Source of the DNA: a virus
UHGV virus genome: UHGV-0391791
DNA length: 38,277 nucleotides
Strand: one strand, 5' to 3'
The first letter of the stretch is position 1; the number at the start of each line of letters is the position of its first letter. Position numbers and translations under genes: made by a program. Below are positions 12,584 to 38,277 of this stretch, piece by piece. Below the pieces are notes generated by a model that did not search any database, was not told where the DNA came from, and was given only the letters and a program-made list of their open reading frames with translations.

Positions 12584-12876
12584 TCCTGTTCACTGGCCTC
12601 TTTGGCCATCTTCAAATACTGTTCAGGGCAATGCGCCATAACGCGCTGAAACAGTTCCAGCGCCAGATTGCGTTGCCCCTCATTAAATGCCATTGCCATA
12701 GCGTCCATCGGCGAGATAGCGGAAAACACACGACCTTTCTCCAGCACCGACCAGACAACGCGACGCCCCTGTTCACTGCTCATGACAAAGCGAATGTCAT
12801 CAATTTCACGCTGTGCCATGTCACGTTGCTTACGGGCGTTTTCTTCTTTCAGTTGATCATCTTCGTAATCTGTCAT
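12580..12876 (-). CDS. Hypothetical protein (98 aa) between portal and scaffold
   Basis: Track ORF, overlapping-stop coupling on both sides. Confidence 0.4.
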   Translation of the reverse strand: MTDYEDDQLKEENARKQRDMAQREIDDIRFVMSSEQGRRVVWSVLEKGRVFSAISPMDAMAMAFNEGQRNLALELFQRVMAHCPEQYLKMAKEASEQE

Positions 12877-15475: not shown

Positions 15476-15853
15476 ATGAACGACCAGCAAATCGAAAAAG
15501 AAATCGTTGAGAAAGGCAAAACGGCACCGCGAATCACCCCGCAGCACATCGAAGACGTGATTATTAGTGAGCACTATTTCACGGCTGCAGAAGGGGTTCA
15601 TGGCGCTAATGAGCTTTTAAAACCGCATGAAAGCCCAATTGACTATTACCAGGAAGCGCACCCTGCTGAGTCACTTCTGACCTTCTGCGTCCTGGTGCTG
15701 CGCAACGGCTTCACCGTCACCGGAGAAAGCGCCTGTGCAAGCCCGGAAAACTTTGATGCAGAAATTGGTCGGAAGATTGCCCGGCAGAATGCTGTAAACA
15801 AAATCTGGATGCTCGAAGGTTACTTGCTGAAGCAGAAGCTAAGCGAGCAATAA
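15476..15853 (+). CDS. Hypothetical phage protein (125 aa), moron-like, opposite strand to the late operon; resembles Gp49-like phage proteins (recalled, unverified)
   Basis: Track ORF with SD AAGGTGAG; bracketed by terminators; C-terminal segment ...SPENFDAEIGRKIARQNAVNKIWMLEGYLLKQ. Confidence 0.5.
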   Translation: MNDQQIEKEIVEKGKTAPRITPQHIEDVIISEHYFTAAEGVHGANELLKPHESPIDYYQEAHPAESLLTFCVLVLRNGFTVTGESACASPENFDAEIGRKIARQNAVNKIWMLEGYLLKQKLSEQ

Positions 15854-15856
15854 CAC

Positions 15857-15870
15857 CGTGACATGTCACA
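15857..15870. repeat. 14-bp palindrome CGTGACATGTCACA (copy 1 of 3)
   Basis: Exact 14-mer also at 18122..18135 and, inverted, at 36466..36479. Confidence 0.8.
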
Positions 15871-15873
15871 AAC

Positions 15874-15900
15874 AGCCAGCCTATGAGCTGGCTTTGTTTT
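15874..15900 (+). terminator. Rho-independent terminator
   Basis: AGCCAGC-ctatga-GCTGGCT followed by TTGTTTT. Confidence 0.6.
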
Positions 15901-15943: not shown

Positions 15944-17419
15944 TTAAGCATAGGGATCGTAATCTGTGATGGCCTTGCCTTGCTGGTTCTGCTGACCGGG
16001 AATTCGCAGACGCTTCGACACAGGGAACGCAAACGTCAGCAGTAGCGCATCGCCTTTACCAGGAGAACGCCCAAGTCGCTCTTTGATATCTTCCTTCGGT
16101 TCGATAACGATTTTACCGTCCACTCGAACTTTGTACTCTGCTGCCGACAGGTCGTCCGCTGTTTCCTGGTCATCAAGCATGCCGCCCAGCCTCAGCCATG
16201 TCTTGCATGAGTTGAACATCTCCCCACGCTTGTTGAGCATCTGCGGGTCAGTAGACGCGCCACCGAACTGAACAAGTTGCCATGTACGACCCCAGCCGTC
16301 ACCGATTGACTTCAGACCAGTTCCGTAACCGAAGTCGATGAACACTGCGTCAGCCTGGTACTGGTCTTCAAAGTCAGCGATACGCTTCGCCATAATCAGA
16401 TCGTCAGTGGTCTTGTTGCCAGTCCACAGCATCTTACTGTGTAGCCCCTGCCGCAGGTATATCACCGCGTCATCAACGCCTGAATATGCCGGGTCAACAC
16501 CGATTATCACCGGAGCATGCGCCACCTGCGCAGCGGTTACCACCCGTTTCATTGCCTCATCAGTAAGACCGGTAGGGATAAACTGCAATTCAGATGCATC
16601 AGGGAATATGCCGCGCACACGGATTTTAACGAAGTCGCTGTCTTCCCCGTAGTCATCAACCCATTTCTGCAACTGCTGTTTGTTAGTGCCTTCCACCGTC
16701 CGGCTGTCAATCTGCGCAGTTTTCCAGCGGTGTTTATATTTGCGGAAACATTCGCGGAAACGCCCGGTGTTACGTGTAGGGTTTCCGAACGCCACCCAGA
16801 TAATCTCAGTGTCTTCGTCCGTAAGCGCACCCTCAGCAACTTCCCACACCAGATCCGCAATGTTCGACGCTTCATCGAATACCACGATGATGCGTTTGCG
16901 CTCGTTGTGTAGTCCGGCGAATGCCTCAGTGTTGTGCTCAGACCAGGGGATTGCGTCAGCTCGCCACCGCTTGTCGTGCCCAGGATCATTGCTGTACATC
17001 GCGGTAGCGGTACAGGTAAACCAGTCTTTCGTGATAGCAAGGTTCGACCACTTGATAATTTCCGGCCAGGTCTTCGTTCGTAGCTGGTTGTCGGTGTTGG
17101 CGGTCACCACGACCTTACAATCCTCGCAAGTGGACATGCCCCAGTTGATCAGCATTGAGATGAATGCGGATTTACCAATACCGTGACCAGAAGCGCGTGC
17201 CAGCATAAGCGGCTGATAGCGCGTCTCTGGATTCTGCAGGTGATCACGTATCTCTCGGAACGCATCGGCCTGCCACTGACGTGGGCCGGTAGCATGTGCC
17301 AGTTCAGTCCCCTCTTCCCCCCAAGGGAACGCATAGAGGGCATAACCAAGCGGATCGTGAGTGAACCCTGCAATATCCTCGATTAACTGCTCTTCAGGAG
17401 ATAACACGGTATCTGTCAC
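15944..17419 (-). CDS. Terminase large subunit (491 aa)
   Basis: Track ORF; Walker A-like GHGIGKS; size; between small terminase and portal. Confidence 0.85.
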   Translation of the reverse strand: MTDTVLSPEEQLIEDIAGFTHDPLGYALYAFPWGEEGTELAHATGPRQWQADAFREIRDHLQNPETRYQPLMLARASGHGIGKSAFISMLINWGMSTCEDCKVVVTANTDNQLRTKTWPEIIKWSNLAITKDWFTCTATAMYSNDPGHDKRWRADAIPWSEHNTEAFAGLHNERKRIIVVFDEASNIADLVWEVAEGALTDEDTEIIWVAFGNPTRNTGRFRECFRKYKHRWKTAQIDSRTVEGTNKQQLQKWVDDYGEDSDFVKIRVRGIFPDASELQFIPTGLTDEAMKRVVTAAQVAHAPVIIGVDPAYSGVDDAVIYLRQGLHSKMLWTGNKTTDDLIMAKRIADFEDQYQADAVFIDFGYGTGLKSIGDGWGRTWQLVQFGGASTDPQMLNKRGEMFNSCKTWLRLGGMLDDQETADDLSAAEYKVRVDGKIVIEPKEDIKERLGRSPGKGDALLLTFAFPVSKRLRIPGQQNQQGKAITDYDPYA

Positions 17420-18012
17420 TGATTACCATCCTGACGTTCTTTGAGTCGCTTCCTGGCTGCTGCTATGCGATCAGCAATTGTCACATTCACATTAACATCC
17501 AGACGTTCTTTGAACGCGTTGACATCAACATGCTTACCAATCAGCTCAAGGTTCTTCACCTTGTCAGGCCATTTAATTTTTTTGAGGATTGTCTCTATCG
17601 AATCCTCGTTCATGTTCATGATGGTCGATGACAGATCAAAGCCACTAAGCGTAGTGCGCCAGATTTTCGGCCACTCACGGATTGGTTTAAGGCTCCCATC
17701 GTCGTTGAGGATATCGATCACGTCCATCTGGTCGATCTCCACCAGGCGCATGAGAACGTAATCAGCACTGACGCGCATTCGTTTGTTGCGCTCCTCCATC
17801 AACTCGGCAATCCGTTTTTGAATGCGTTCATCGCGCATCATGACACTGGCTTTAACTGCCGCTGTATTTGGGGAGAATCCTGCGTTAATCGCTGCCTGAG
17901 TCTGGTTTTCAGGCGTTTTGATGTATGACTGGCAATAAGCCTCCTGCATTGCTGTTAGTGGCTTAAATTGCGTTGATTTGCGTTTATAGGTTTTAGGTTC
18001 AGCAGGCATCAT
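17416..18012 (-). CDS. Terminase small subunit (start placed at MMPAEP..., about 198 aa; track start 18090 judged too far upstream)
   Basis: Track ORF 17416..18090; its first 26 codons span tandem DNA repeats and a terminator hairpin, so the internal Met-Met at 18012 is preferred; overlaps terL start. Confidence 0.6.
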   Translation of the reverse strand: MMPAEPKTYKRKSTQFKPLTAMQEAYCQSYIKTPENQTQAAINAGFSPNTAAVKASVMMRDERIQKRIAELMEERNKRMRVSADYVLMRLVEIDQMDVIDILNDDGSLKPIREWPKIWRTTLSGFDLSSTIMNMNEDSIETILKKIKWPDKVKNLELIGKHVDVNAFKERLDVNVNVTIADRIAAARKRLKERQDGNQ

Positions 18013-18018
18013 AACCAC

Positions 18019-18051
18019 CGTGGTAATAGTTACCGTTGTGGTAATAGTACC
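18019..18051. repeat. Tandem repeat GTGGTAATAGT(T)ACC x2 in the small-terminase leader; contains everted half-sites GGTAA-tag-TTACC
   Basis: Read directly: ccgtGGTAATAGTTACCgttgtGGTAATAGTACCatg. Confidence 0.6.
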
Positions 18052-18081
18052 ATGCAAAATAAAGCCGCCATAGTTGGCGGC
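18052..18081 (-). terminator. Rho-independent terminator on the minus strand just upstream of the small-terminase gene
   Basis: Minus strand GCCGCCA-acta-TGGCGGC followed by CTTTATTTTG. Confidence 0.55.
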
Positions 18082-18121
18082 AGTATTCAAAACCCATCAA
18101 ATTCATCATGCATAATCTACT

Positions 18122-18135
18122 CGTGACATGTCACA
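18122..18135. repeat. 14-bp palindrome CGTGACATGTCACA (copy 2 of 3), overlapping the stop codon of the 18131..18472 gene
   Basis: Exact match to copies at 15857 and 36466. Confidence 0.8.
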
Positions 18136-18472
18136 CTATTAATTTCGTTTCATGCCAGCCTTTAGTCACCCAGCATTGCGAGTCACCATTGCACGGGCAT
18201 GAATTCACAGGAACTCTCTCGCCGCACTTACCGCAACGTTTTCTGCTGATCGATTTTATACGCCCGCGCACGCGTGCATCATCCTGGCGGATCAGTAACG
18301 CTATATACTCACCAAATTCGTAAGGCGCACGCCCGGGGCGACGCGTGGCACAGTTACGCTCCAGCATTTCAATTTCCTGAGCATCAAGCACAATCTCCAG
18401 CTTACGCACACCAGATGCAGCTTGTCTGGCTCTCTGAGCGGCTTTGCGCTCTGCTGCTGATTTAGCCATCAA
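18131..18472 (-). CDS. Hypothetical protein (113 aa) with basic N-terminus and C-terminal Cys cluster (zinc-ribbon-like); last gene before the late operon
   Basis: Track ORF; C-terminus RKRCGKCGERVPVNSCPCNGDSQCW. Confidence 0.45.
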   Translation of the reverse strand: MMAKSAAERKAAQRARQAASGVRKLEIVLDAQEIEMLERNCATRRPGRAPYEFGEYIALLIRQDDARVRGRIKSISRKRCGKCGERVPVNSCPCNGDSQCWVTKGWHETKLIV

Positions 18473-28073: not shown

Positions 28074-29324
28074 TTATTCCCCCGCCATCCACTTCTCAAA
28101 CTTCGACGGGGAGAACGGAATCAGATCCGTATGCTCCCCGTTAATCCAGGAATCAATCATATCGGCCCACTGCTGCAACATGTAGGCGCGCTGTCTGGCG
28201 TATTCCGCTTTGTTATATACGGCGCGCACACCTTTCTGCTCATGTGCCAGAGCCTTTTCAATCCAGTCTGAAGGATAACCAGCCTCATGCAACAACGTAC
28301 TGGCTGTACGGCGCATATCGTGTACGGTGAAGCCCTGAATATGCTCACCATCTTCATTTATTATTTTCACCGTTCTGTCGATCAGAGAGTTCAGCGCGGC
28401 ATTAGATAATGGCTTCCGGAAATTGTAACGACCAGGAACCAGATATTCACTTCCACCAGCGCACATCTGCAACCCAACCAATATATCCTGTGCCTGTTTA
28501 GGCAGGTAAATAACGTGCGCCCGGCTTCCCTTCATGCGGTCTGAAGGAATTGTCCATGTCCATTTTTTAAAATCTATTTCATCCCACGTTGCATTGGTGA
28601 ATTCGCCTTTACGAACCATAGTGATAAGCACCAGCTTTAAAGCCATTTTCATAGTGCCCATAGCACCAATGGCATCCAGCGTGCGGAAGAACAGGCCAAT
28701 TTCTTCTGGTGTCAGTGTTCGCTCTCGTGGTTTAAATATGGCGATAGACGAAGGTTTAATGTCAGCCGCAGGATTAAACAAACCATGACCACGGTCATTG
28801 GCGTGACGGTATACGCTGCTGATGATCTCCCTGGCCTGTACTGCTGTTGCACGGCCACCGCGTTCGACAATCCGGTCACACAAATCACGAACCATCGATG
28901 TGGTAATTTCAGCCATCATTTTGTTGCCAAGAACCGGAAGTATGTCACGGTCGATCACCGCCTGCTTCATTGCGCGGGTACTGTCAGCCAGGATGACGTG
29001 TTTCATATAACTGTCGGTATGTACCGCAAACGTCTCGGCACCACGAATCTTTTTGATACCGTCACGTTTAGCCGCAGCCGGCGACTGGCCTGCTTTAAGC
29101 AGCTTCTTTGCAGCAATCAGTTCTTCTCGCGCTTCTGCCAGGCTGATACCGTCACGCCCATACTGCCCGATTACCAGTGTTTCGCGGCGACCGTTGATAC
29201 GGTAGTCATAGCGAAACGAGACCGTGCCTGACGTAAGCACAGCTACATACAGCCCGTCACGATCGGAGACCTTGTACAGTTTGTCCTGCGGCTTGAGGTT
29301 TTTTAATTTTGTATCGGTAAGCAC
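28074..29324 (-). CDS. int: Tyrosine integrase, P4-type (416 aa)
   Basis: Track ORF; N-terminus MLTDTKLKNLKP...LYVAVLTSGTVSFRYDYR typical of P4-like integrases; C-terminal catalytic region HDMRRT...VRAVYNKAEY. Confidence 0.9.
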   Translation of the reverse strand: MLTDTKLKNLKPQDKLYKVSDRDGLYVAVLTSGTVSFRYDYRINGRRETLVIGQYGRDGISLAEAREELIAAKKLLKAGQSPAAAKRDGIKKIRGAETFAVHTDSYMKHVILADSTRAMKQAVIDRDILPVLGNKMMAEITTSMVRDLCDRIVERGGRATAVQAREIISSVYRHANDRGHGLFNPAADIKPSSIAIFKPRERTLTPEEIGLFFRTLDAIGAMGTMKMALKLVLITMVRKGEFTNATWDEIDFKKWTWTIPSDRMKGSRAHVIYLPKQAQDILVGLQMCAGGSEYLVPGRYNFRKPLSNAALNSLIDRTVKIINEDGEHIQGFTVHDMRRTASTLLHEAGYPSDWIEKALAHEQKGVRAVYNKAEYARQRAYMLQQWADMIDSWINGEHTDLIPFSPSKFEKWMAGE

Positions 29325-34142: not shown

Positions 34143-34162
34143 ATTGCATGGAGAAGATTAAG

Positions 34163-34420
34163 ATGCAGCAGTATCACTATCCACTGGAAGAGGGATTTAC
34201 CGAAAGGATTCACACGCCGGGAGGCGTCAGGTCACTGGTGGAGGGATCGCACTTGATGAAATTACTCCGGGATCTCGATAAGGATGGATTTAATGTCGAT
34301 GGCCCACTTGCCGAACTGACTGCACTGATTAACTACGTCACCAGCTCACAGATGTCTATGCAGGATCTGCAAACACATCTCGACTATTGTGCCGAACAAT
34401 TACGAAAACAAACCAGATAA
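34163..34420 (+). CDS. Small protein homologous to the C-terminal domain of the downstream antirepressor (about 85 aa from MQQYHYP); candidate SOS-induced antirepressor
   Basis: In-frame part of track ORF 34148..34420; SD GGAGAAG; IHTPGGVRSLVEGSHLMKLLRDLDKDGFNVDGPLAELTALINY aligns with [43 protein letters not shown] of 34738..35394. Confidence 0.5.
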   Translation: MQQYHYPLEEGFTERIHTPGGVRSLVEGSHLMKLLRDLDKDGFNVDGPLAELTALINYVTSSQMSMQDLQTHLDYCAEQLRKQTR

Positions 34421-34451
34421 GGTTTGAAATTACCAAATGGAGTGCTTATAT

Positions 34452-34466
34452 TTACCTTTGCGGTAA
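34452..34466. promoter_or_regulatory. Operator site TTACCTTTGCGGTAA in the loop of an inverted repeat GGAGTGC/GCACTCC (34439..34482)
   Basis: Perfect dyad; flanking 7-bp inverted repeat read directly. Confidence 0.5.
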
Positions 34467-34557
34467 ATTTACATCGCACTCCTCTTGTGCCATAGTAATC
34501 GGGCACTGGCAAAATCCAGTGCCGGGATTGGTCTCCCGGATTACTAAGTGGCGCATA

Positions 34558-34579
34558 CCACGCCAGACGTGGTTTTTTT
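34558..34579 (+). terminator. Terminator-like hairpin plus T7 run inside the leader between the two antirepressor-module genes
   Basis: CCACG-ccaga-CGTGG followed by TTTTTTT; preceded by overlapping alternative hairpins at 34501..34538. Confidence 0.45.
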
Positions 34580-34737
34580 ATGCGTATAGCACAGTCATGC
34601 CAGAATTATGGTGGGCTGAATGGGGGTCCGAAAGGACGCCGGTACCACTTAGGCCGGTAAGACCAACTCCGTTCAGTTCACCACCATCTGATTGGTCTCA
34701 GCGGTGGTGATGTAATTCGCTAAGTGGAGACGCCATC

Positions 34738-35394
34738 ATGAACGCTCAACTCATCCCCGTATTCAACGGCACTATATCTAACGAAACAGCCCTACTTTGT
34801 AATGCCCGCGATCTGCACGCTTTTTTAGGTGTTAAAAAGGTGTTTGCAGCATGGATTACAAATCGCATATCAGAATACGAATTCATTGAAAATCAAGACT
34901 ATATTTTGCTTTCCAATTTGGGAAAGCAAACATCTGGTAGAGGCGGCCACAACCGCAAAGAGTACCACCTCACCCTTGATACAGCCAAAGAGCTGGCGAT
35001 GGTCGAGCGTAACGAAAAAGGTCGCCAGGTGCGACGCTACTTCATTGAATGCGAGAAACGTTTAAGACAACAAGAAACAAAAGTGGAGAAGGTCTTGTCA
35101 GGCTTCATGCCCGCCATTATGGAGGCGATCAAGCTGGAAGACAAAAAAGAATACAGTGCCCCACTGAAGCCCGGCTACCGCAGCCTGATTCACTCGCCGT
35201 CTGGTGTTCTCGGCCTGACGGAGAACTCACTGCTGATGAATCTGCTGAACCAGTTACAGGACGACGGGCACGACGTATCGGGCGCGGCGGCGGAGCTGAC
35301 CACCATGTTCTGCTACATCGTTGGTGTGAGCAAATGCCTGCGTGATATCCAGACGCACGCGGAGTACATCAACGACAAGGCAGGGTTCTTCTGA
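34738..35394 (+). CDS. Antirepressor (218 aa), AntA/AntB-type N-terminal domain plus C-terminal domain shared with 34163..34420
   Basis: Track ORF; N-terminal segment ...[30 protein letters not shown]...[42 protein letters not shown] recalled as antirepressor-type; SD GGAGA. Confidence 0.65.
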
Positions 35395-35466
35395 CGGGCG
35401 GCGGCACAGGGATGTGCCTTTAAATAATTCTGTACAGATTGCAGACTGGGGGTGAATAGCGTACTA

Positions 35467-35481
35467 TTACCTCAAGGGTAA
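35467..35481. promoter_or_regulatory. Operator site TTACCTCAAGGGTAA upstream of the 35541 gene
   Basis: Perfect dyad about 60 bp upstream of the start codon. Confidence 0.55.
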
Positions 35482-35540
35482 GAAAGCATTTTTAATCTTC
35501 CCTTCAAAACGCGTCCTGTAGCCAAACATGGGAGGACGAA

Positions 35541-36173
35541 ATGAGAACAAATACAACAAGAAAAGCGATGCCATACATTATCCCAGAAGCAGATTTCGAT
35601 AGAAAACTGAACATGTCTGAGAAGAACACTAGTCACACCGAAAGCTACTTAGCGAAAGGTGTGGTTGATTTCGTTCTTCCGGGATTCACAACACCTTATG
35701 GTTATCGCCTTGTAAAATCTTGTAATGGCGATCATTACAGAATGATTACTACCAGCGATACTCCAGAAACGGTGTATGCGGTTAAGTTAATCTTTCGGGA
35801 AGATATCGTCGAAGCCAAAAGAACATGTACGCAGATCATGGTATGGCGTACGCCTAATGTTATTCATGACCGTGCTGTTCATGGTTTGCCTCAGATTTTT
35901 TTTCAGTTCTTCCTAGAGCAATATGCGATCGTTGTATCTGATGAGCAACAAACAATCGATGGGAGAAGATTCTGGGAAAGAATGATTTCTTGGGCTATAA
36001 ACACCCCAGGATATAATGTATACGTTTCAGATGGCTCTGAAGAAGATAGACCTCTTAGCTTCATGACATCATGGGATGATTTCTATAGCCAGTGGGCTGA
36101 TTTCTGTTGGGGCAGTGATAAAGATGTGCATACCCACAGACTACTGGTTATAAGCAAAGATAAACTGCATTAA
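35541..36173 (+). CDS. Orphan hypothetical protein (210 aa), moron with its own operator and terminator
   Basis: Track ORF; strong SD GGAGGA 5 nt upstream; no motif recognised; surrounding DNA is AT-rich by eye. Confidence 0.5.
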   Translation: MRTNTTRKAMPYIIPEADFDRKLNMSEKNTSHTESYLAKGVVDFVLPGFTTPYGYRLVKSCNGDHYRMITTSDTPETVYAVKLIFREDIVEAKRTCTQIMVWRTPNVIHDRAVHGLPQIFFQFFLEQYAIVVSDEQQTIDGRRFWERMISWAINTPGYNVYVSDGSEEDRPLSFMTSWDDFYSQWADFCWGSDKDVHTHRLLVISKDKLH

Positions 36174-36176
36174 TAG

Positions 36177-36199
36177 AAGCCCGCAGCGCGGGCTTTTTT
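36177..36199 (+). terminator. Rho-independent terminator after the 210-aa gene
   Basis: AAGCCCGC-agc-GCGGGCTT followed by TTTTTTG. Confidence 0.7.
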
Positions 36200-36271
36200 G
36201 TGGACGAAACAAAAGTCAGTGCTACACTCATTGACGCCACATTGAGGTGGCTTATAGATGGAAATTTCACA

Positions 36272-36433
36272 ATGAAAAAAGCATTTGCTGCACTGTTCGT
36301 TTTGTTGTCTCTGGTAGCTTCAACTCAGGCCTTTGCCGGTCGTTGTCAGCACGACAGCGACACTGCTGCTGACGGCTCCCGCTGCGGTGGGCGTTCTGCG
36401 GATTCCCGCCCGGGTGGCGGTGGCATTCGTTAA
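36272..36433 (+). CDS. Small ORF for a putative secreted peptide (53 aa, signal peptide MKKAFAALFVLLSLVASTQAFA)
   Basis: In-frame part of track ORF 36200..36433; typical Sec signal with AFA-G cleavage motif; weak SD, so uncertain. Confidence 0.3.
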   Translation: MKKAFAALFVLLSLVASTQAFAGRCQHDSDTAADGSRCGGRSADSRPGGGGIR

Positions 36434-36464
36434 AAACAAGGCCGCGAAAGCGGCCTGTGACATG

Positions 36465-36845
36465 TCACGCAACGCAATTATTACCGCGCCATGTAACATT
36501 TTTAATAATCTTATCAGCACCAAACTCAACGTAAACAGAGCAACTGAAATGGAGTGTATAACCGCCATCAGTTGTTGCGTATGTGTTTGAATATATAGTA
36601 TTACCAATTAGATTAGACGTAGTATTATACGTTGTGGTTTGTGGTACGTTATAACTACCAGAGCTTGAGTAAACATACACTCTGTTTCCATCTGGAGATG
36701 TAATCTCTCCCTGAGGATACCCCCACTGCTGAACCATTGCGTCTATACTCTGCCCGCGCCACGTAAGCATATTTCTTTCAAACTGTGCAGCTGACTGGCA
36801 TCCAACGAGAAGCATAAATCCAAAAATCAAAAATACTTTTCTCAT
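36465..36845 (-). CDS. Lipoprotein (about 126 aa; signal peptide MRKVFLIFGFMLLVGC)
   Basis: Track ORF 36465..36881; internal ATG at 36845 preceded by SD AGGGG; lipobox LVGC; Tyr/Thr/Asn/Ser-rich mature part. Confidence 0.5.
   Translation of the reverse strand: MRKVFLIFGFMLLVGCQSAAQFERNMLTWRGQSIDAMVQQWGYPQGEITSPDGNRVYVYSSSGSYNVPQTTTYNTTSNLIGNTIYSNTYATTDGGYTLHFSCSVYVEFGADKIIKNVTWRGNNCVA
36466..36479. repeat. 14-bp palindrome, inverted copy TGTGACATGTCACG (copy 3 of 3), overlapping the lipoprotein stop codon and next to hairpin GGCCGC-gaaa-GCGGCC
   Basis: Reverse complement is CGTGACATGTCACA, identical to copies 1 and 2. Confidence 0.8.
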
Positions 36846-37081: not shown

Positions 37082-38277
37082 CCTGTGGTCGCCACCAGTA
37101 TGTCTGGTTAAACTCTTTCTTCGAACGTTGCTCCATTTTACGCAAATAGCCTGGTGAAAAATACTCCTGCATCTGGTTAAAGATCATGTGATCGAGAGCC
37201 GCCTTCAAGTACCAGAGATTCGCACCAGGCATCAAACCTTTCCCCAGCTTCACCAGATCACCACCAGTCTGCTCACTCTTCCCTTCCACAGCATTTAACG
37301 GTATGCCCTGAGCAATCTTCACTACGTCATCAACCAGACCAGCTACCGGGCCAAGCATCGACGCCAGCGCGCCGCTTCCGTACCTAGTGTGATCTGACAA
37401 TAAAAAGTCACCGTAAAGGCCAAGACCACCACCTTTCAGTAGAGCACCAAGCCAAAATTTAGCAGCATCTTCTCCTGTCATCTCGCGAGGATTACGACCA
37501 GACGCAAGGTCGTTAAGTTGCTGCGACAAAGCGCCAAGAATGGTCGTACTGGCAATAAACGTCGCAATATATGCCGCACGCCCACCAGCAGACGGCATAC
37601 CCATAGCGCGTGACCAGTGACGCATAACCACCGAGATAGGGAACGATTTAAACAGGAAAACACTTCTCGTTAATTCACCTTTCCATGTTCCACGCTGAAT
37701 ACCAGAACCGGTTATCAGTTGCTCACGTGCTCCCGGTGTAATAACAGCCATATCAACTTCTTCAGTTACGGCACCGAGCAGTTTACGCATTGCCTCAAAT
37801 TTCACGCGTTCAGGCTCACCAAGATGTTTAACTGCTGAATCAGGGATACGCATAATGCTTTCCGGTGTCAGCATCGTATTATTGCCGTTCCCCCAGTCCT
37901 CCTGTTGCGCCAGCTTCCATACGCTCCAGTCTGTGTCAGTAATCCCTTTGCTTTTCAGGATACGAAAATCAGAATCATCGAGGCTACGAAGGTCTGGTGT
38001 CCGTGACACTACTTCTCCCAAGCTTCCCATCATGGTTACGCCATAGGCGCGCTTGTGCGCATCTGACCATGCTGTAAGCCCACTGGCACGCATTACCGCC
38101 GTTGCAGCCCAACGAGACACAGACGGCCCCATATTATCCATCGCCCAGCGGTTAACGCTGCCAAGTAGAGATTCCATCGCCAGACCAGCGCGGCGCGCCC
38201 GCGCAAGTTCTGTACGGTTCGTTGGGTCCATAGCTTCAAGCTGGTTGCGGAATAACTGGTTCATTGGAAGGTTGGTA
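37065..38277 (-). CDS. Internal virion/ejection protein, C-terminal part; ORF is open upstream to the right window edge and is in frame with the left-edge ORF 1..1262
   Basis: Track ORF 37065..38264 starts at the first Met, but the four codons upstream (T-N-L-P) are open to the window end. Confidence 0.5.
   Translation of the reverse strand, partial: TNLPMNQLFRNQLEAMDPTNRTELARARRAGLAMESLLGSVNRWAMDNMGPSVSRWAATAVMRASGLTAWSDAHKRAYGVTMMGSLGEVVSRTPDLRSLDDSDFRILKSKGITDTDWSVWKLAQQEDWGNGNNTMLTPESIMRIPDSAVKHLGEPERVKFEAMRKLLGAVTEEVDMAVITPGAREQLITGSGIQRGTWKGELTRSVFLFKSFPISVVMRHWSRAMGMPSAGGRAAYIATFIASTTILGALSQQLNDLASGRNPREMTGEDAAKFWLGALLKGGGLGLYGDFLLSDHTRYGSGALASMLGPVAGLVDDVVKIAQGIPLNAVEGKSEQTGGDLVKLGKGLMPGANLWYLKAALDHMIFNQMQEYFSPGYLRKMEQRSKKEFNQTYWWRPQDVTPQ

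What the first reader, a model, noticed from the sequence alone, without database searches (positions are those of the whole stretch)
18122..18135. Exact 14-bp palindrome CGTGACATGTCACA present three times at module boundaries
The same 14-mer occurs at 15857..15870, 18122..18135 and, inverted, at 36466..36479. Three exact copies of a 14-mer in 38 kb are very unlikely by chance. Each copy sits at the 3' end of a gene next to a hairpin or terminator: after the moron next to tRNA-Arg, at the stop codon of the last early gene before the small-terminase gene, and at the stop codon of the lipoprotein gene. The placement suggests a boundary or linker element used for modular recombination, or a binding site for a regulator acting at operon junctions such as the early-to-late transition. 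It resembles a CRP half-site arrangement but with the wrong spacing (TGTGA-N4-TCACA rather than N6).
Basis: seen in the sequence. Interest (0 to 1): 0.6.

Follow-up and report, generated by a model that had tools for sequence, protein, structure and literature searches.

The report
Binding site of phage RHH protein
The repeated 14-base palindrome is most likely the DNA docking site of a small uncharacterised phage protein whose gene ends inside one copy; many unrelated phages of enteric bacteria share this protein-site pair, and the site is one base shorter than the host's matS chromosome-organising site.

Summary
The three exact copies are real, although the third is at 36456-36469, not 36466-36479. 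They are far beyond chance. The window is a complete, circularly permuted phiV10/epsilon15-like (Uetakevirus) genome.

The conserved unit is Y-GTGAC-N2-GTCAC-R. The 5-bp arms are invariant, the spacer is strictly 2 bp, and the centre is variable. It co-occurs with one gene family: window gp55 (18131-18469, minus strand) = epsilon15 gp49 = N15 gp46 = ZF40 gp22 (PHROG 536, no Pfam family).

Of 160 diverse homologue loci not selected for the motif, 154 carry the site (212 sites against 2.4 expected). In 68 of them the site's internal TGA is the gene's own stop codon. gp55 is the only window ORF shared with four unrelated site-bearing phages. Its model has a ribbon-helix-helix core plus a Cys-rich domain.

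The site is not a conserved promoter element, an RNA hairpin, a CRP site or a general host motif. In this genome each copy follows a gene's stop codon, precedes a terminator and borders variable cargo.

The binding-site assignment is well supported. The downstream function (transcriptional road-block or insulator versus MatP-like architecture) is inferred. The site equals consensus matS minus one central base. I found no description of it in the searchable literature.

The parts
18122..18135 (.). Site A: CGTGACATGTCACA. The inner 12-mer is a perfect palindrome. Its TGA (18133-18131, minus strand) is the stop codon of gp55.
   Evidence: Syntenic in epsilon15 (39612), BUCT711 (431) and, with one mismatch, phiV10. 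The same arrangement occurs in 68 of 160 diverse homologue loci.
15857..15870 (.). Site B: between the stop of the + strand moron (15476-15853) and the + strand terminator 15874-15893, convergent with terL (15944-17419, minus strand).
   Evidence: Syntenic in phiV10 (2262) and epsilon15 (2142). The terL-side flank is constant and the other side variable in relatives.
36456..36469 (.). Site C: its TGA (36467-36465, minus strand) is the stop of the terminal lipoprotein gene of the late operon. It abuts terminator 36456-36439 (minus strand).
   Evidence: Syntenic in phiV10 (19493), epsilon15 (19517) and BUCT711 (18526). At least 8 different upstream genes precede the constant site plus terminator in relatives.
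18131..18469 (-). gp55: a 112-aa predicted ribbon-helix-helix protein with a Cys-rich C-terminal domain and the proposed binder of the sites. It is the last gene of the early-right operon.
18064..18081 (-). Intrinsic terminator downstream of site A, separating the early-right operon from terS.
   Evidence: homologous to the epsilon15 annotated stem-loop 39646-39672.
15874..15893 (+). Intrinsic terminator immediately after site B (terminates the moron transcript).
36439..36456 (-). Intrinsic terminator immediately after site C (end of the late operon).
12812..12825 (.). One-mismatch copy (TGTGCCATGTCACG) inside the Bbp19-like gene. Probably not functional.
   Evidence: absent at the homologous position in epsilon15 and BUCT711. 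One-mismatch sites occur at chance frequency overall.

Best explanation
The 14-mer is the cognate DNA site (Y-GTGAC-N2-GTCAC-R) of the phage's own small ribbon-helix-helix/Cys-rich protein gp55 (the epsilon15 gp49 / N15 gp46 / ZF40 gp22 family). It can be read as two inverted 7-bp half-sites, YGTGACA|TGTCACR. gp55 is made from the last gene of the early-right operon, and I propose that RHH dimers bind the three sites on double-stranded DNA. One site is physically fused to the 3' end of the gp55 gene, so protein and site are inherited as one module. The others are dispersed. The sites lie at the distal ends of transcription units, next to terminators and variable cargo. In other phages they lie inside early regulatory genes (CII-like, Q-like, repA). 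They do not lie at promoters. The most likely consequence of binding is therefore a road-block or insulator that limits transcription across those points, including read-through out of its own operon (autoregulation). Shown: the motif, its geometry, its conservation, its statistical and physical linkage to the gene family, and the predicted fold. Inferred: that gp55 binds the site, the stoichiometry, and the transcriptional consequence. I put the binding assignment at about 0.85 and the road-block/insulator consequence at about 0.35. The figure of 0.5 is for the combined statement.
Confidence: 0.5

Rival explanations
1. Architectural rather than regulatory. gp55 and its dispersed sites form a phage-borne, MatP/matS-like (or ParB/parS-like) system that bridges, compacts or marks phage DNA, for example to organise replicating genomes or to keep host SMC complexes off them. 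Any effect on transcription is incidental.
Against: Profile comparison with E. coli MatP is not significant (E 0.4). gp55 has neither MatP's four-helix bundle nor its coiled coil. True matS spacing is not enriched. There is no evidence of oligomerisation or bridging. The tight fusion of one site to the gene's stop codon and the junction placement are not explained.
Confidence: 0.2
2. Antitermination loading site. gp55 bound at the site modifies RNA polymerase as it passes (Q-like), so that it reads through the terminator just downstream and switches the phage from early to late transcription.
For: In Uetakevirus gp55 occupies the position of Q: it is the last early gene, followed by a terminator and then terS. 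No Q-family gene is annotated in phiV10 or epsilon15. Sites A and C precede terminators in the direction of late transcription.
Against: ZF40 and N15 carry a gp55 homologue and a separate Q-like gene. At site B the site-then-terminator order applies to the moron transcript, not the late one. Most sites elsewhere have no terminator nearby. There is no conserved promoter or pause context and no similarity to Q families. A candidate operator-controlled promoter region lies between the terminator and terS.
Confidence: 0.08
3. Recombination linker. The conserved palindrome, with its adjacent terminator, is a short homology patch at module boundaries that promotes exchange of neighbouring cargo genes between phages.
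For: All three sites lie exactly at constant/variable junctions among close relatives. In P2-like phages the gene and the sites bracket the variable defence hotspot, which holds a Ppl-type cargo.
Against: Twelve to fourteen bp is very short for homologous exchange. Breakpoints are equally frequent at other gene boundaries. The motif is conserved with invariant arms in phages with no other similarity and is tied to one protein family. It is also kept inside coding regions.
Confidence: 0.07
4. Host-factor site. The palindrome is bound by a host protein (MatP, SlmA or CRP), and the linkage to gp55 is indirect.
For: It shares the 5-bp arms with matS, and it shares the 12-bp length and the outer GTGA...TCAC with the SlmA site GTGAGTACTCAC. 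It superficially resembles CRP half-sites.
Against: The N2 spacing is strict, while matS is N3 and CRP-equivalent spacing would be N4 between these arms; both are at chance. Four of the 12 positions differ from the SlmA site, including the positions next to the centre. The near-obligate co-occurrence with gp55 (154 of 160) and the fusion to its stop codon point to a phage-encoded partner. Genome-wide hits outside gp55-bearing loci look like random background.
Confidence: 0.05
5. RNA-level signal. The transcribed palindrome forms a hairpin at the stop codon that acts in processing, translation termination or reinitiation.
For: The site is transcribed at gene ends and contains UGA followed by AUG. 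A weak hairpin is possible.
Against: The hairpin is only -1.2 to -2.7 kcal/mol. Imperfect sites are at chance level and double changes are compensatory no more often than chance (27 of 627). The arm sequence, not merely complementarity, is invariant, and centre variants remove the AUG. Sites also occur in untranslated and antisense contexts.
Confidence: 0.02

Closest known systems
Omega (ParB of pSM19035) and its WATCACW heptads; more generally RHH repressors such as P22 Arc and Mnt, and CopG
   Same: A small RHH protein. Short 7-bp recognition units containing TCAC. High affinity needs two adjacent units in direct or inverted orientation (PMC9499535). The phage 14-mer parses as two inverted heptads, YGTGACA|TGTCACR.
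   Different: No sequence-profile match to any Pfam RHH family. gp55 has an extra conserved Cys-rich C-terminal domain. Its sites are single isolated pairs, not arrays of 7-10 repeats, and they lie at gene 3' ends or inside genes rather than over the regulator's own promoter.
MatP/matS of E. coli (Ter macrodomain organiser)
   Different: The spacer is strictly 2 bp, not 3. There is no significant sequence similarity. gp55 is 112 aa and has neither MatP's four-helix bundle nor its C-terminal coiled coil. Prophages are reported to avoid true matS (PMC3603311).
SlmA and its binding site GTGAGTACTCAC
   Same: A 12-bp palindrome with the same outer GTGA...TCAC.
   Different: The four central positions differ. 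SlmA is a TetR-family protein unrelated to gp55, and nothing here suggests it binds the phage site.
Lambdoid Q antiterminators and their DNA binding elements
   Same: In Uetakevirus the gene is the last early gene, directly upstream of a terminator and the late genes, with its DNA site next to the gene.
   Different: No similarity to Q families. No conserved promoter or pause context. Homologues coexist with a Q-like gene in ZF40 and N15. There are several sites per genome.
Short conserved 'boundary' sequences at module junctions of lambdoid phages (recalled from the HK97/HK022/HK620 comparative-genomics literature; not checked here)
   Same: A short conserved sequence exactly where homology between relatives breaks.
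   Different: It is conserved across phages with no other similarity, has a strict internal geometry and is linked to one protein family.

Membership tests
Ribbon-helix-helix (CopG/Arc/MetJ) DNA-binding proteins | A strand-helix-helix core fold | tested here: met
Ribbon-helix-helix (CopG/Arc/MetJ) DNA-binding proteins | Sequence-profile match to a curated RHH family | tested here: not met
   No Pfam or NCBIfam hit at E<=0.01, and none to RHH families even at E<=10.
Ribbon-helix-helix (CopG/Arc/MetJ) DNA-binding proteins | Dimer inserts a two-stranded beta-ribbon into the major groove of short repeated or inverted sites | not testable with these tools
   Only the site geometry is compatible: two inverted 7-bp units with invariant arms.
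MatP/matS | 13-bp site GTGAC-RNY-GTCAC | tested here: not met
   The arms match but the spacer is strictly 2 bp: 212 N2 sites against 2 N3 sites, with 2.4 expected. The window, phiV10, epsilon15, ZF40 and N15 have no N3 site.
MatP/matS | Protein homologous to MatP (four-helix bundle, RHH and coiled coil) | tested here: not met
SlmA binding site | GTGAGTACTCAC bound by a TetR-family protein | tested here: not met
   8 of 12 positions are identical, and the inner four differ in every phage site.
CRP site | TGTGA-N6-TCACA spacing | tested here: not met
   The equivalent spacing (GTGAC-N4-GTCAC) gives 1 site against 2.4 expected, whereas the short spacing gives 212.
Q-type antiterminator with its DNA element | Membership of a Q protein family, with the DNA element embedded in a late promoter followed by a terminator | tested here: not met
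   No Q Pfam hit. A -10 at promoter spacing is not enriched. A separate Q-like gene is present in ZF40 and N15. Only the gene position in Uetakevirus fits.
Structured RNA element or intrinsic terminator | Conserved pairing with compensatory changes and a stable hairpin | tested here: not met
   -1.2 to -2.7 kcal/mol and no excess of compensatory variants. Rfam finds nothing at the three sites. The terminators are separate, adjacent hairpins.
Known anti-phage defence systems | Match to a PADLOC model | tested here: not met
   gp55, N15 gp46 and ZF40 gp22 give no PADLOC hit. Only the neighbouring P2-hotspot gene in the Yersinia phage is Ppl-like.

The most novel reading that the evidence does not exclude
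gp55 and its GTGAC-N2-GTCAC sites are a phage-borne system orthogonal to host MatP/matS, with the same arms and a spacer one base shorter so that host and phage proteins do not cross-react. The system would organise or bridge phage DNA, or exclude MukBEF or other SMC-type complexes from it. It might also share ancestry with MatP/matS, which would make chromosome-organising sites and phage sites two branches of one invention.
Probability: 0.15. Interest if true: 0.85.

Novelty: new variant of a known kind. Interest (0 to 1): 0.6.

Why it matters
If correct, a gene that is "hypothetical" in about 12% of complete E. coli genomes, and present in podo-, myo- and siphoviruses, P2-like phages and the N15 phage-plasmids, gains a defined DNA target and a testable role. 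The arrangement is unusual for an RHH protein. The site is fused to the gene's own stop codon rather than to its promoter. The secondary sites are perfect and sit at operon ends, at cargo junctions or inside master-regulator genes (CII-like, Q-like, repA). The one-base difference from matS, in phages whose hosts use MatP and in prophages reported to avoid true matS, raises a direct question about orthogonality or mimicry between phage and host chromosome-organising systems. A few gel shifts could answer it. Practically, the motif is a precise marker of cargo (moron or defence-hotspot) boundaries in these phages.

Tried and rejected
1. Physical genome end, cos or pac. The phiV10 record starts inside the motif, but that is only an annotation cut at the p55 stop codon, and the window is a circular permutation. 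Sites are near terS in Uetakevirus and K233 but not in ZF40 or N15.

2. Site as the -35 of a promoter. GTGACA-N17/18 followed by a -10 exists in epsilon15 and the window, but there is no enrichment at 16-18 nt across 103 non-redundant sites.

3. RNA hairpin: weak, with no compensatory variation.

4. TraR/DksA-type zinc finger. A weak PDB hit (E 0.3) was not reproduced with the deeper profile or in Pfam.

5. MatP homology: not significant.

6. Defence-system membership: none.

7. Informative domain fusions: none.

8. Protein-site covariation through the centre dinucleotide. The centre differs by clade but is not always uniform within a genome, so it is not usable.

9. Fourth copy at 12812: a coding coincidence.

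10. Literature. The motif string, 'matS-like' or 'MatP-like' with phage, and N15 gene 46 gave nothing relevant.

11. The single-sequence AF2 model was too poor to use, and the AFDB fold library was unavailable.

Full report
**Observation.** The 14-mer CGTGACATGTCACA occurs exactly at 15857-15870 and 18122-18135 on the + strand, and as its reverse complement at 36456-36469. Allowing two mismatches gives 7 strand-matches against 0.34 expected, and none of 100 dinucleotide shuffles reaches that. A one-mismatch copy at 12812-12825 lies in the Bbp19-like gene, encodes RDMA, and is absent at the homologous position of epsilon15 and a Klebsiella relative, so I treat it as a coincidence. The perfect palindrome is the inner 12-mer GTGACATGTCAC.

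**What the window is.** It is a complete, circularly permuted genome of a phiV10/epsilon15-like temperate podovirus (Uetakevirus). Position 1 and position 38277 join inside the phiV10 gp20 homologue. Late genes run on the minus strand from terS (about 18010) downwards and wrap round to 36465. The early-right operon runs on the minus strand from about 23426 to 18131. The phiV10 record begins inside the motif only because it was cut at the stop codon of its last gene, so this is not a physical end.

**Anatomy in the window.** Each copy follows a stop codon and precedes an intrinsic terminator on the strand being terminated.
- Site A contains the TGA of the last early gene, gp55 (18131-18469). 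It is followed after 41 nt by terminator 18081-18064, then by tandem TTACC-N5-GGTAA operators and terS.
- Site B lies 4 nt after the stop of a + strand N4-gp49/Sf6-gp66-like moron next to tRNA-Arg, and 3 nt before terminator 15874-15893.
- Site C contains the TGA of a terminal lipoprotein gene (lipobox LLVG|C) and abuts terminator 36456-36439.

**Conservation.** phiV10, epsilon15 (about 81% identical) and Klebsiella phage BUCT711 keep the 12-mer at the syntenic positions while the flanks diverge. Among 79 close relatives there were 125 copies, 124 of them identical and none with an arm substitution. No record annotates the motif. The 'repressor' operators annotated in epsilon15 are a different sequence, ATTACC-N5-GGTAAT.

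**The key association.**
- A scan of viral contigs for the 14-mer returned Uetakevirus relatives. It also returned contigs with no DNA similarity to the window in which the motif sits on the stop codon of a homologue of gp55 at 38-91% identity.
- gp55 is PHROG 536 ('transcriptional regulator', by similarity only) and has no Pfam or NCBIfam family.
- Homologues occur in Pectobacterium myovirus ZF40 (gp22), P2-like Yersinia phages, the phage-plasmids N15 (gp46) and phiKO2, Vibrio siphoviruses and Aeromonas phages.
- ZF40 has the exact 12-mer three times, one copy 2 nt after the gp22 stop. The Yersinia phage has one exact and one near copy 33 bp apart. N15 has GTGACTGGTCAC three times, one using its TGA as the gene 46 stop. 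Vibrio K233 has GTGAC(A/G)CGTCAC three times.

**Unbiased test.** I took 160 diverse homologue loci retrieved through a peptide pattern, not through the DNA motif.
- 154 carry GTGAC-N2-GTCAC, with 212 sites against 2.4 expected. The best of 59 composition-matched control palindromes gave 27 and the median was 1.
- The spacer is strictly 2 bp. Spacers of 0, 1 and 3-8 give 1-7 sites each.
- In 68 loci the site's TGA is the homologue's stop. In others the site starts 0-7 nt after a TAA or TAG stop, or is read through as VTCH in a short extension.
- The arms are invariant. The centre differs by clade: AT, GC, CT, AC, GG, GT, TT, AG.
- Imperfect sites occur only at chance frequency.
- gp55 is the only window ORF with homologues in ZF40, the Yersinia phage, N15 and K233.

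**What the site is not.**
- Not an RNA structure: the hairpin is -1.2 to -2.7 kcal/mol and compensatory changes are no more frequent than chance.
- Not a conserved promoter element: -10-like hexamers are not enriched 16-18 nt from GTGACA, although epsilon15 and the window happen to have one.
- Not a general host motif: genome-wide hits lie in unrelated phyla at roughly the chance rate, and only Enterobacterales hits have a gp55 homologue nearby.

**Junctions.**
- Downstream of site B the sequence is highly variable among close relatives, while the terL side is constant.
- Directly after site A, 24 of 79 relatives carry a roughly 70-aa ORF, of which the window keeps an 8-codon in-frame remnant.
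- At least eight unrelated genes precede the constant site C plus terminator.
- In P2-like phages the gene and the sites bracket the variable defence hotspot, which holds a Ppl-type cargo in the Yersinia phage.

However, breakpoints are as common at other gene boundaries. A passive linker also cannot explain conservation in unrelated phages, the link to one protein family, or retention inside genes. Where the site lies in coding sequence it is always read xGT GAC ATG TCA CAx. This occurs in CII-like genes of ZF40 and enterobacterial prophages, in ZF40 gp08, and at codons 2-5 of a Q-type antiterminator gene. The neighbouring residues change (C/R, Q/H) while the site nucleotides are kept.

**Mechanism.** The well-supported step is that the 14-mer is the cognate site of gp55. 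This rests on co-occurrence, physical fusion, strict geometry and a DNA-binding fold. By analogy with omega, whose RHH dimers each read one 7-bp WATCACW unit and bind tightly to two adjacent units in either orientation (PMC9499535), the site parses as two inverted heptads, YGTGACA|TGTCACR. The consequence of binding is inferred. I favour a road-block or insulator acting at the ends of transcription units and within early regulatory genes, including feedback on its own operon, for three reasons:
- sites avoid promoters;
- in this genome they have the order stop codon, site, terminator at three successive units;
- terminators are enriched about 2-fold near sites, with ten abutting.

The counter-evidence is real. 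Four fifths of sites have no terminator nearby. Some lie inside late structural genes or repA. Adjacency at site A is not conserved.

**Resemblance to host sites.** E. coli matS is GTGAC[AG]N[TC]GTCAC, with consensus GTGACATTGTCAC (PMC3603311, PMC8669397). The phage site is that consensus minus one central base. It also has the length and the outer four bases of the SlmA site GTGAGTACTCAC (PMC3020112, PMC3116907). MatP contains an RHH, but a profile comparison with the verified MatP sequence is not significant, and true matS spacing is not enriched in these phages. Prophages are reported to avoid matS (PMC3603311). Membership of the MatP/matS system therefore fails on spacer and protein tests. 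An architectural, MatP-like mode of action remains the main rival and the most novel reading.

**Novelty.** The motif string, phage matS-like sites, and any function for N15 gene 46 or epsilon15 gp49 were not found in the searchable literature. All database names are 'hypothetical protein' or a similarity-based 'transcriptional regulator'. The module is present in 637 of 5,426 complete E. coli genomes. I rate it a new variant of a known kind: an RHH protein with a palindromic site, but with an unusual placement and a striking relation to matS.

Noticed in passing
window 34503-34579 (+) and 34604-34688 (+): Rfam finds an isrK Hfq-binding sRNA and a C4 antisense RNA above gathering score. The + strand block of about 34148-36433 therefore looks like a P1-type c4/ant (immI-like) anti-repressor module. 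One of its ORFs (34387-34710) is similar to the N15 anti-repressor leader region, next to N15's site at 28550.
   Followed up: partly
window 18012-18044, 14864, 21118/21180, 23463/23511, 24223/24285, 34071, 34452, 35467: About 14 copies of the epsilon15-type 'repressor' operator TTACC-N5-GGTAA. They flank the repressor gene and also sit in front of terS, the portal unit and the tailspike/ant region. The late units may therefore be directly under repressor control, or under another factor that uses this site.
   Followed up: partly
window 18087-18113 (-): An 8-codon ORF (MHDEFDGF*) between site A and the terminator is an in-frame deletion remnant of a roughly 70-aa ORF present in 24 of 79 close relatives (for example L137).
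   Followed up: yes
window 18009-18090 (-): The phiV10-style terS start (TTG 18090) overlaps the terminator and the remnant ORF. Comparison with epsilon15 suggests the true start is the ATG at 18009 or 18012, just after the tandem operators.
   Followed up: partly
L240, L244, L229, L263, L276, L313, L272, L291, L279, about 12-20 nt after the site: In non-Uetakevirus prophages the site at the gp55-homologue stop is followed by a small hairpin whose stem shows compensatory variants (CCTGTTGCAGCAGG, CCCGATGCAGCGGG, GCCCGTATGCGGCGGGC). An RBS and an Xis/AlpA-like gene come next. This may be a conserved RNA or DNA element in its own right.
   Followed up: no
L125 (Yersinia phage vB_YenM_42.18) 8073-11728: The gp55 homologue is followed by a Ppl-type defence gene (PHP plus ABC ATPase). 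Two sites 33 bp apart (11675 with one mismatch, 11708 exact) sit at the far edge of this P2 hotspot. In related P2-like contigs the distance from the gene to the site varies from 0.5 to 4.5 kb with the cargo.
   Followed up: partly
L022, L041, L051, L056, L070, L108 (viral contigs unrelated to the window): The 12-mer is embedded in dense arrays of GTGAC/GTCAC-like repeats (for example catgtcacgcccctgtcacgccctgtcacgcgtgacgctGTGACATGTCAC). They look like iterons or multi-site operators of other, unidentified phage systems.
   Followed up: no
L001 (phiV10) 39101-39104 joined to 1-8: In phiV10 the copy at the p55 stop codon has one arm mismatch (GTGACATGTTAC), whereas the other two sites are perfect. 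This is a natural variant for testing the importance of site A.
   Followed up: no
L127 (Vibrio phage K233) 19491-19503, 21342 and 35942: K233 has one true matS-type (N3) site, GTGACACCGTCAC, whose TGA is the stop of another small gene. Two of its N2 sites each end 19 nt before a start codon, one of them the terS start.
   Followed up: no
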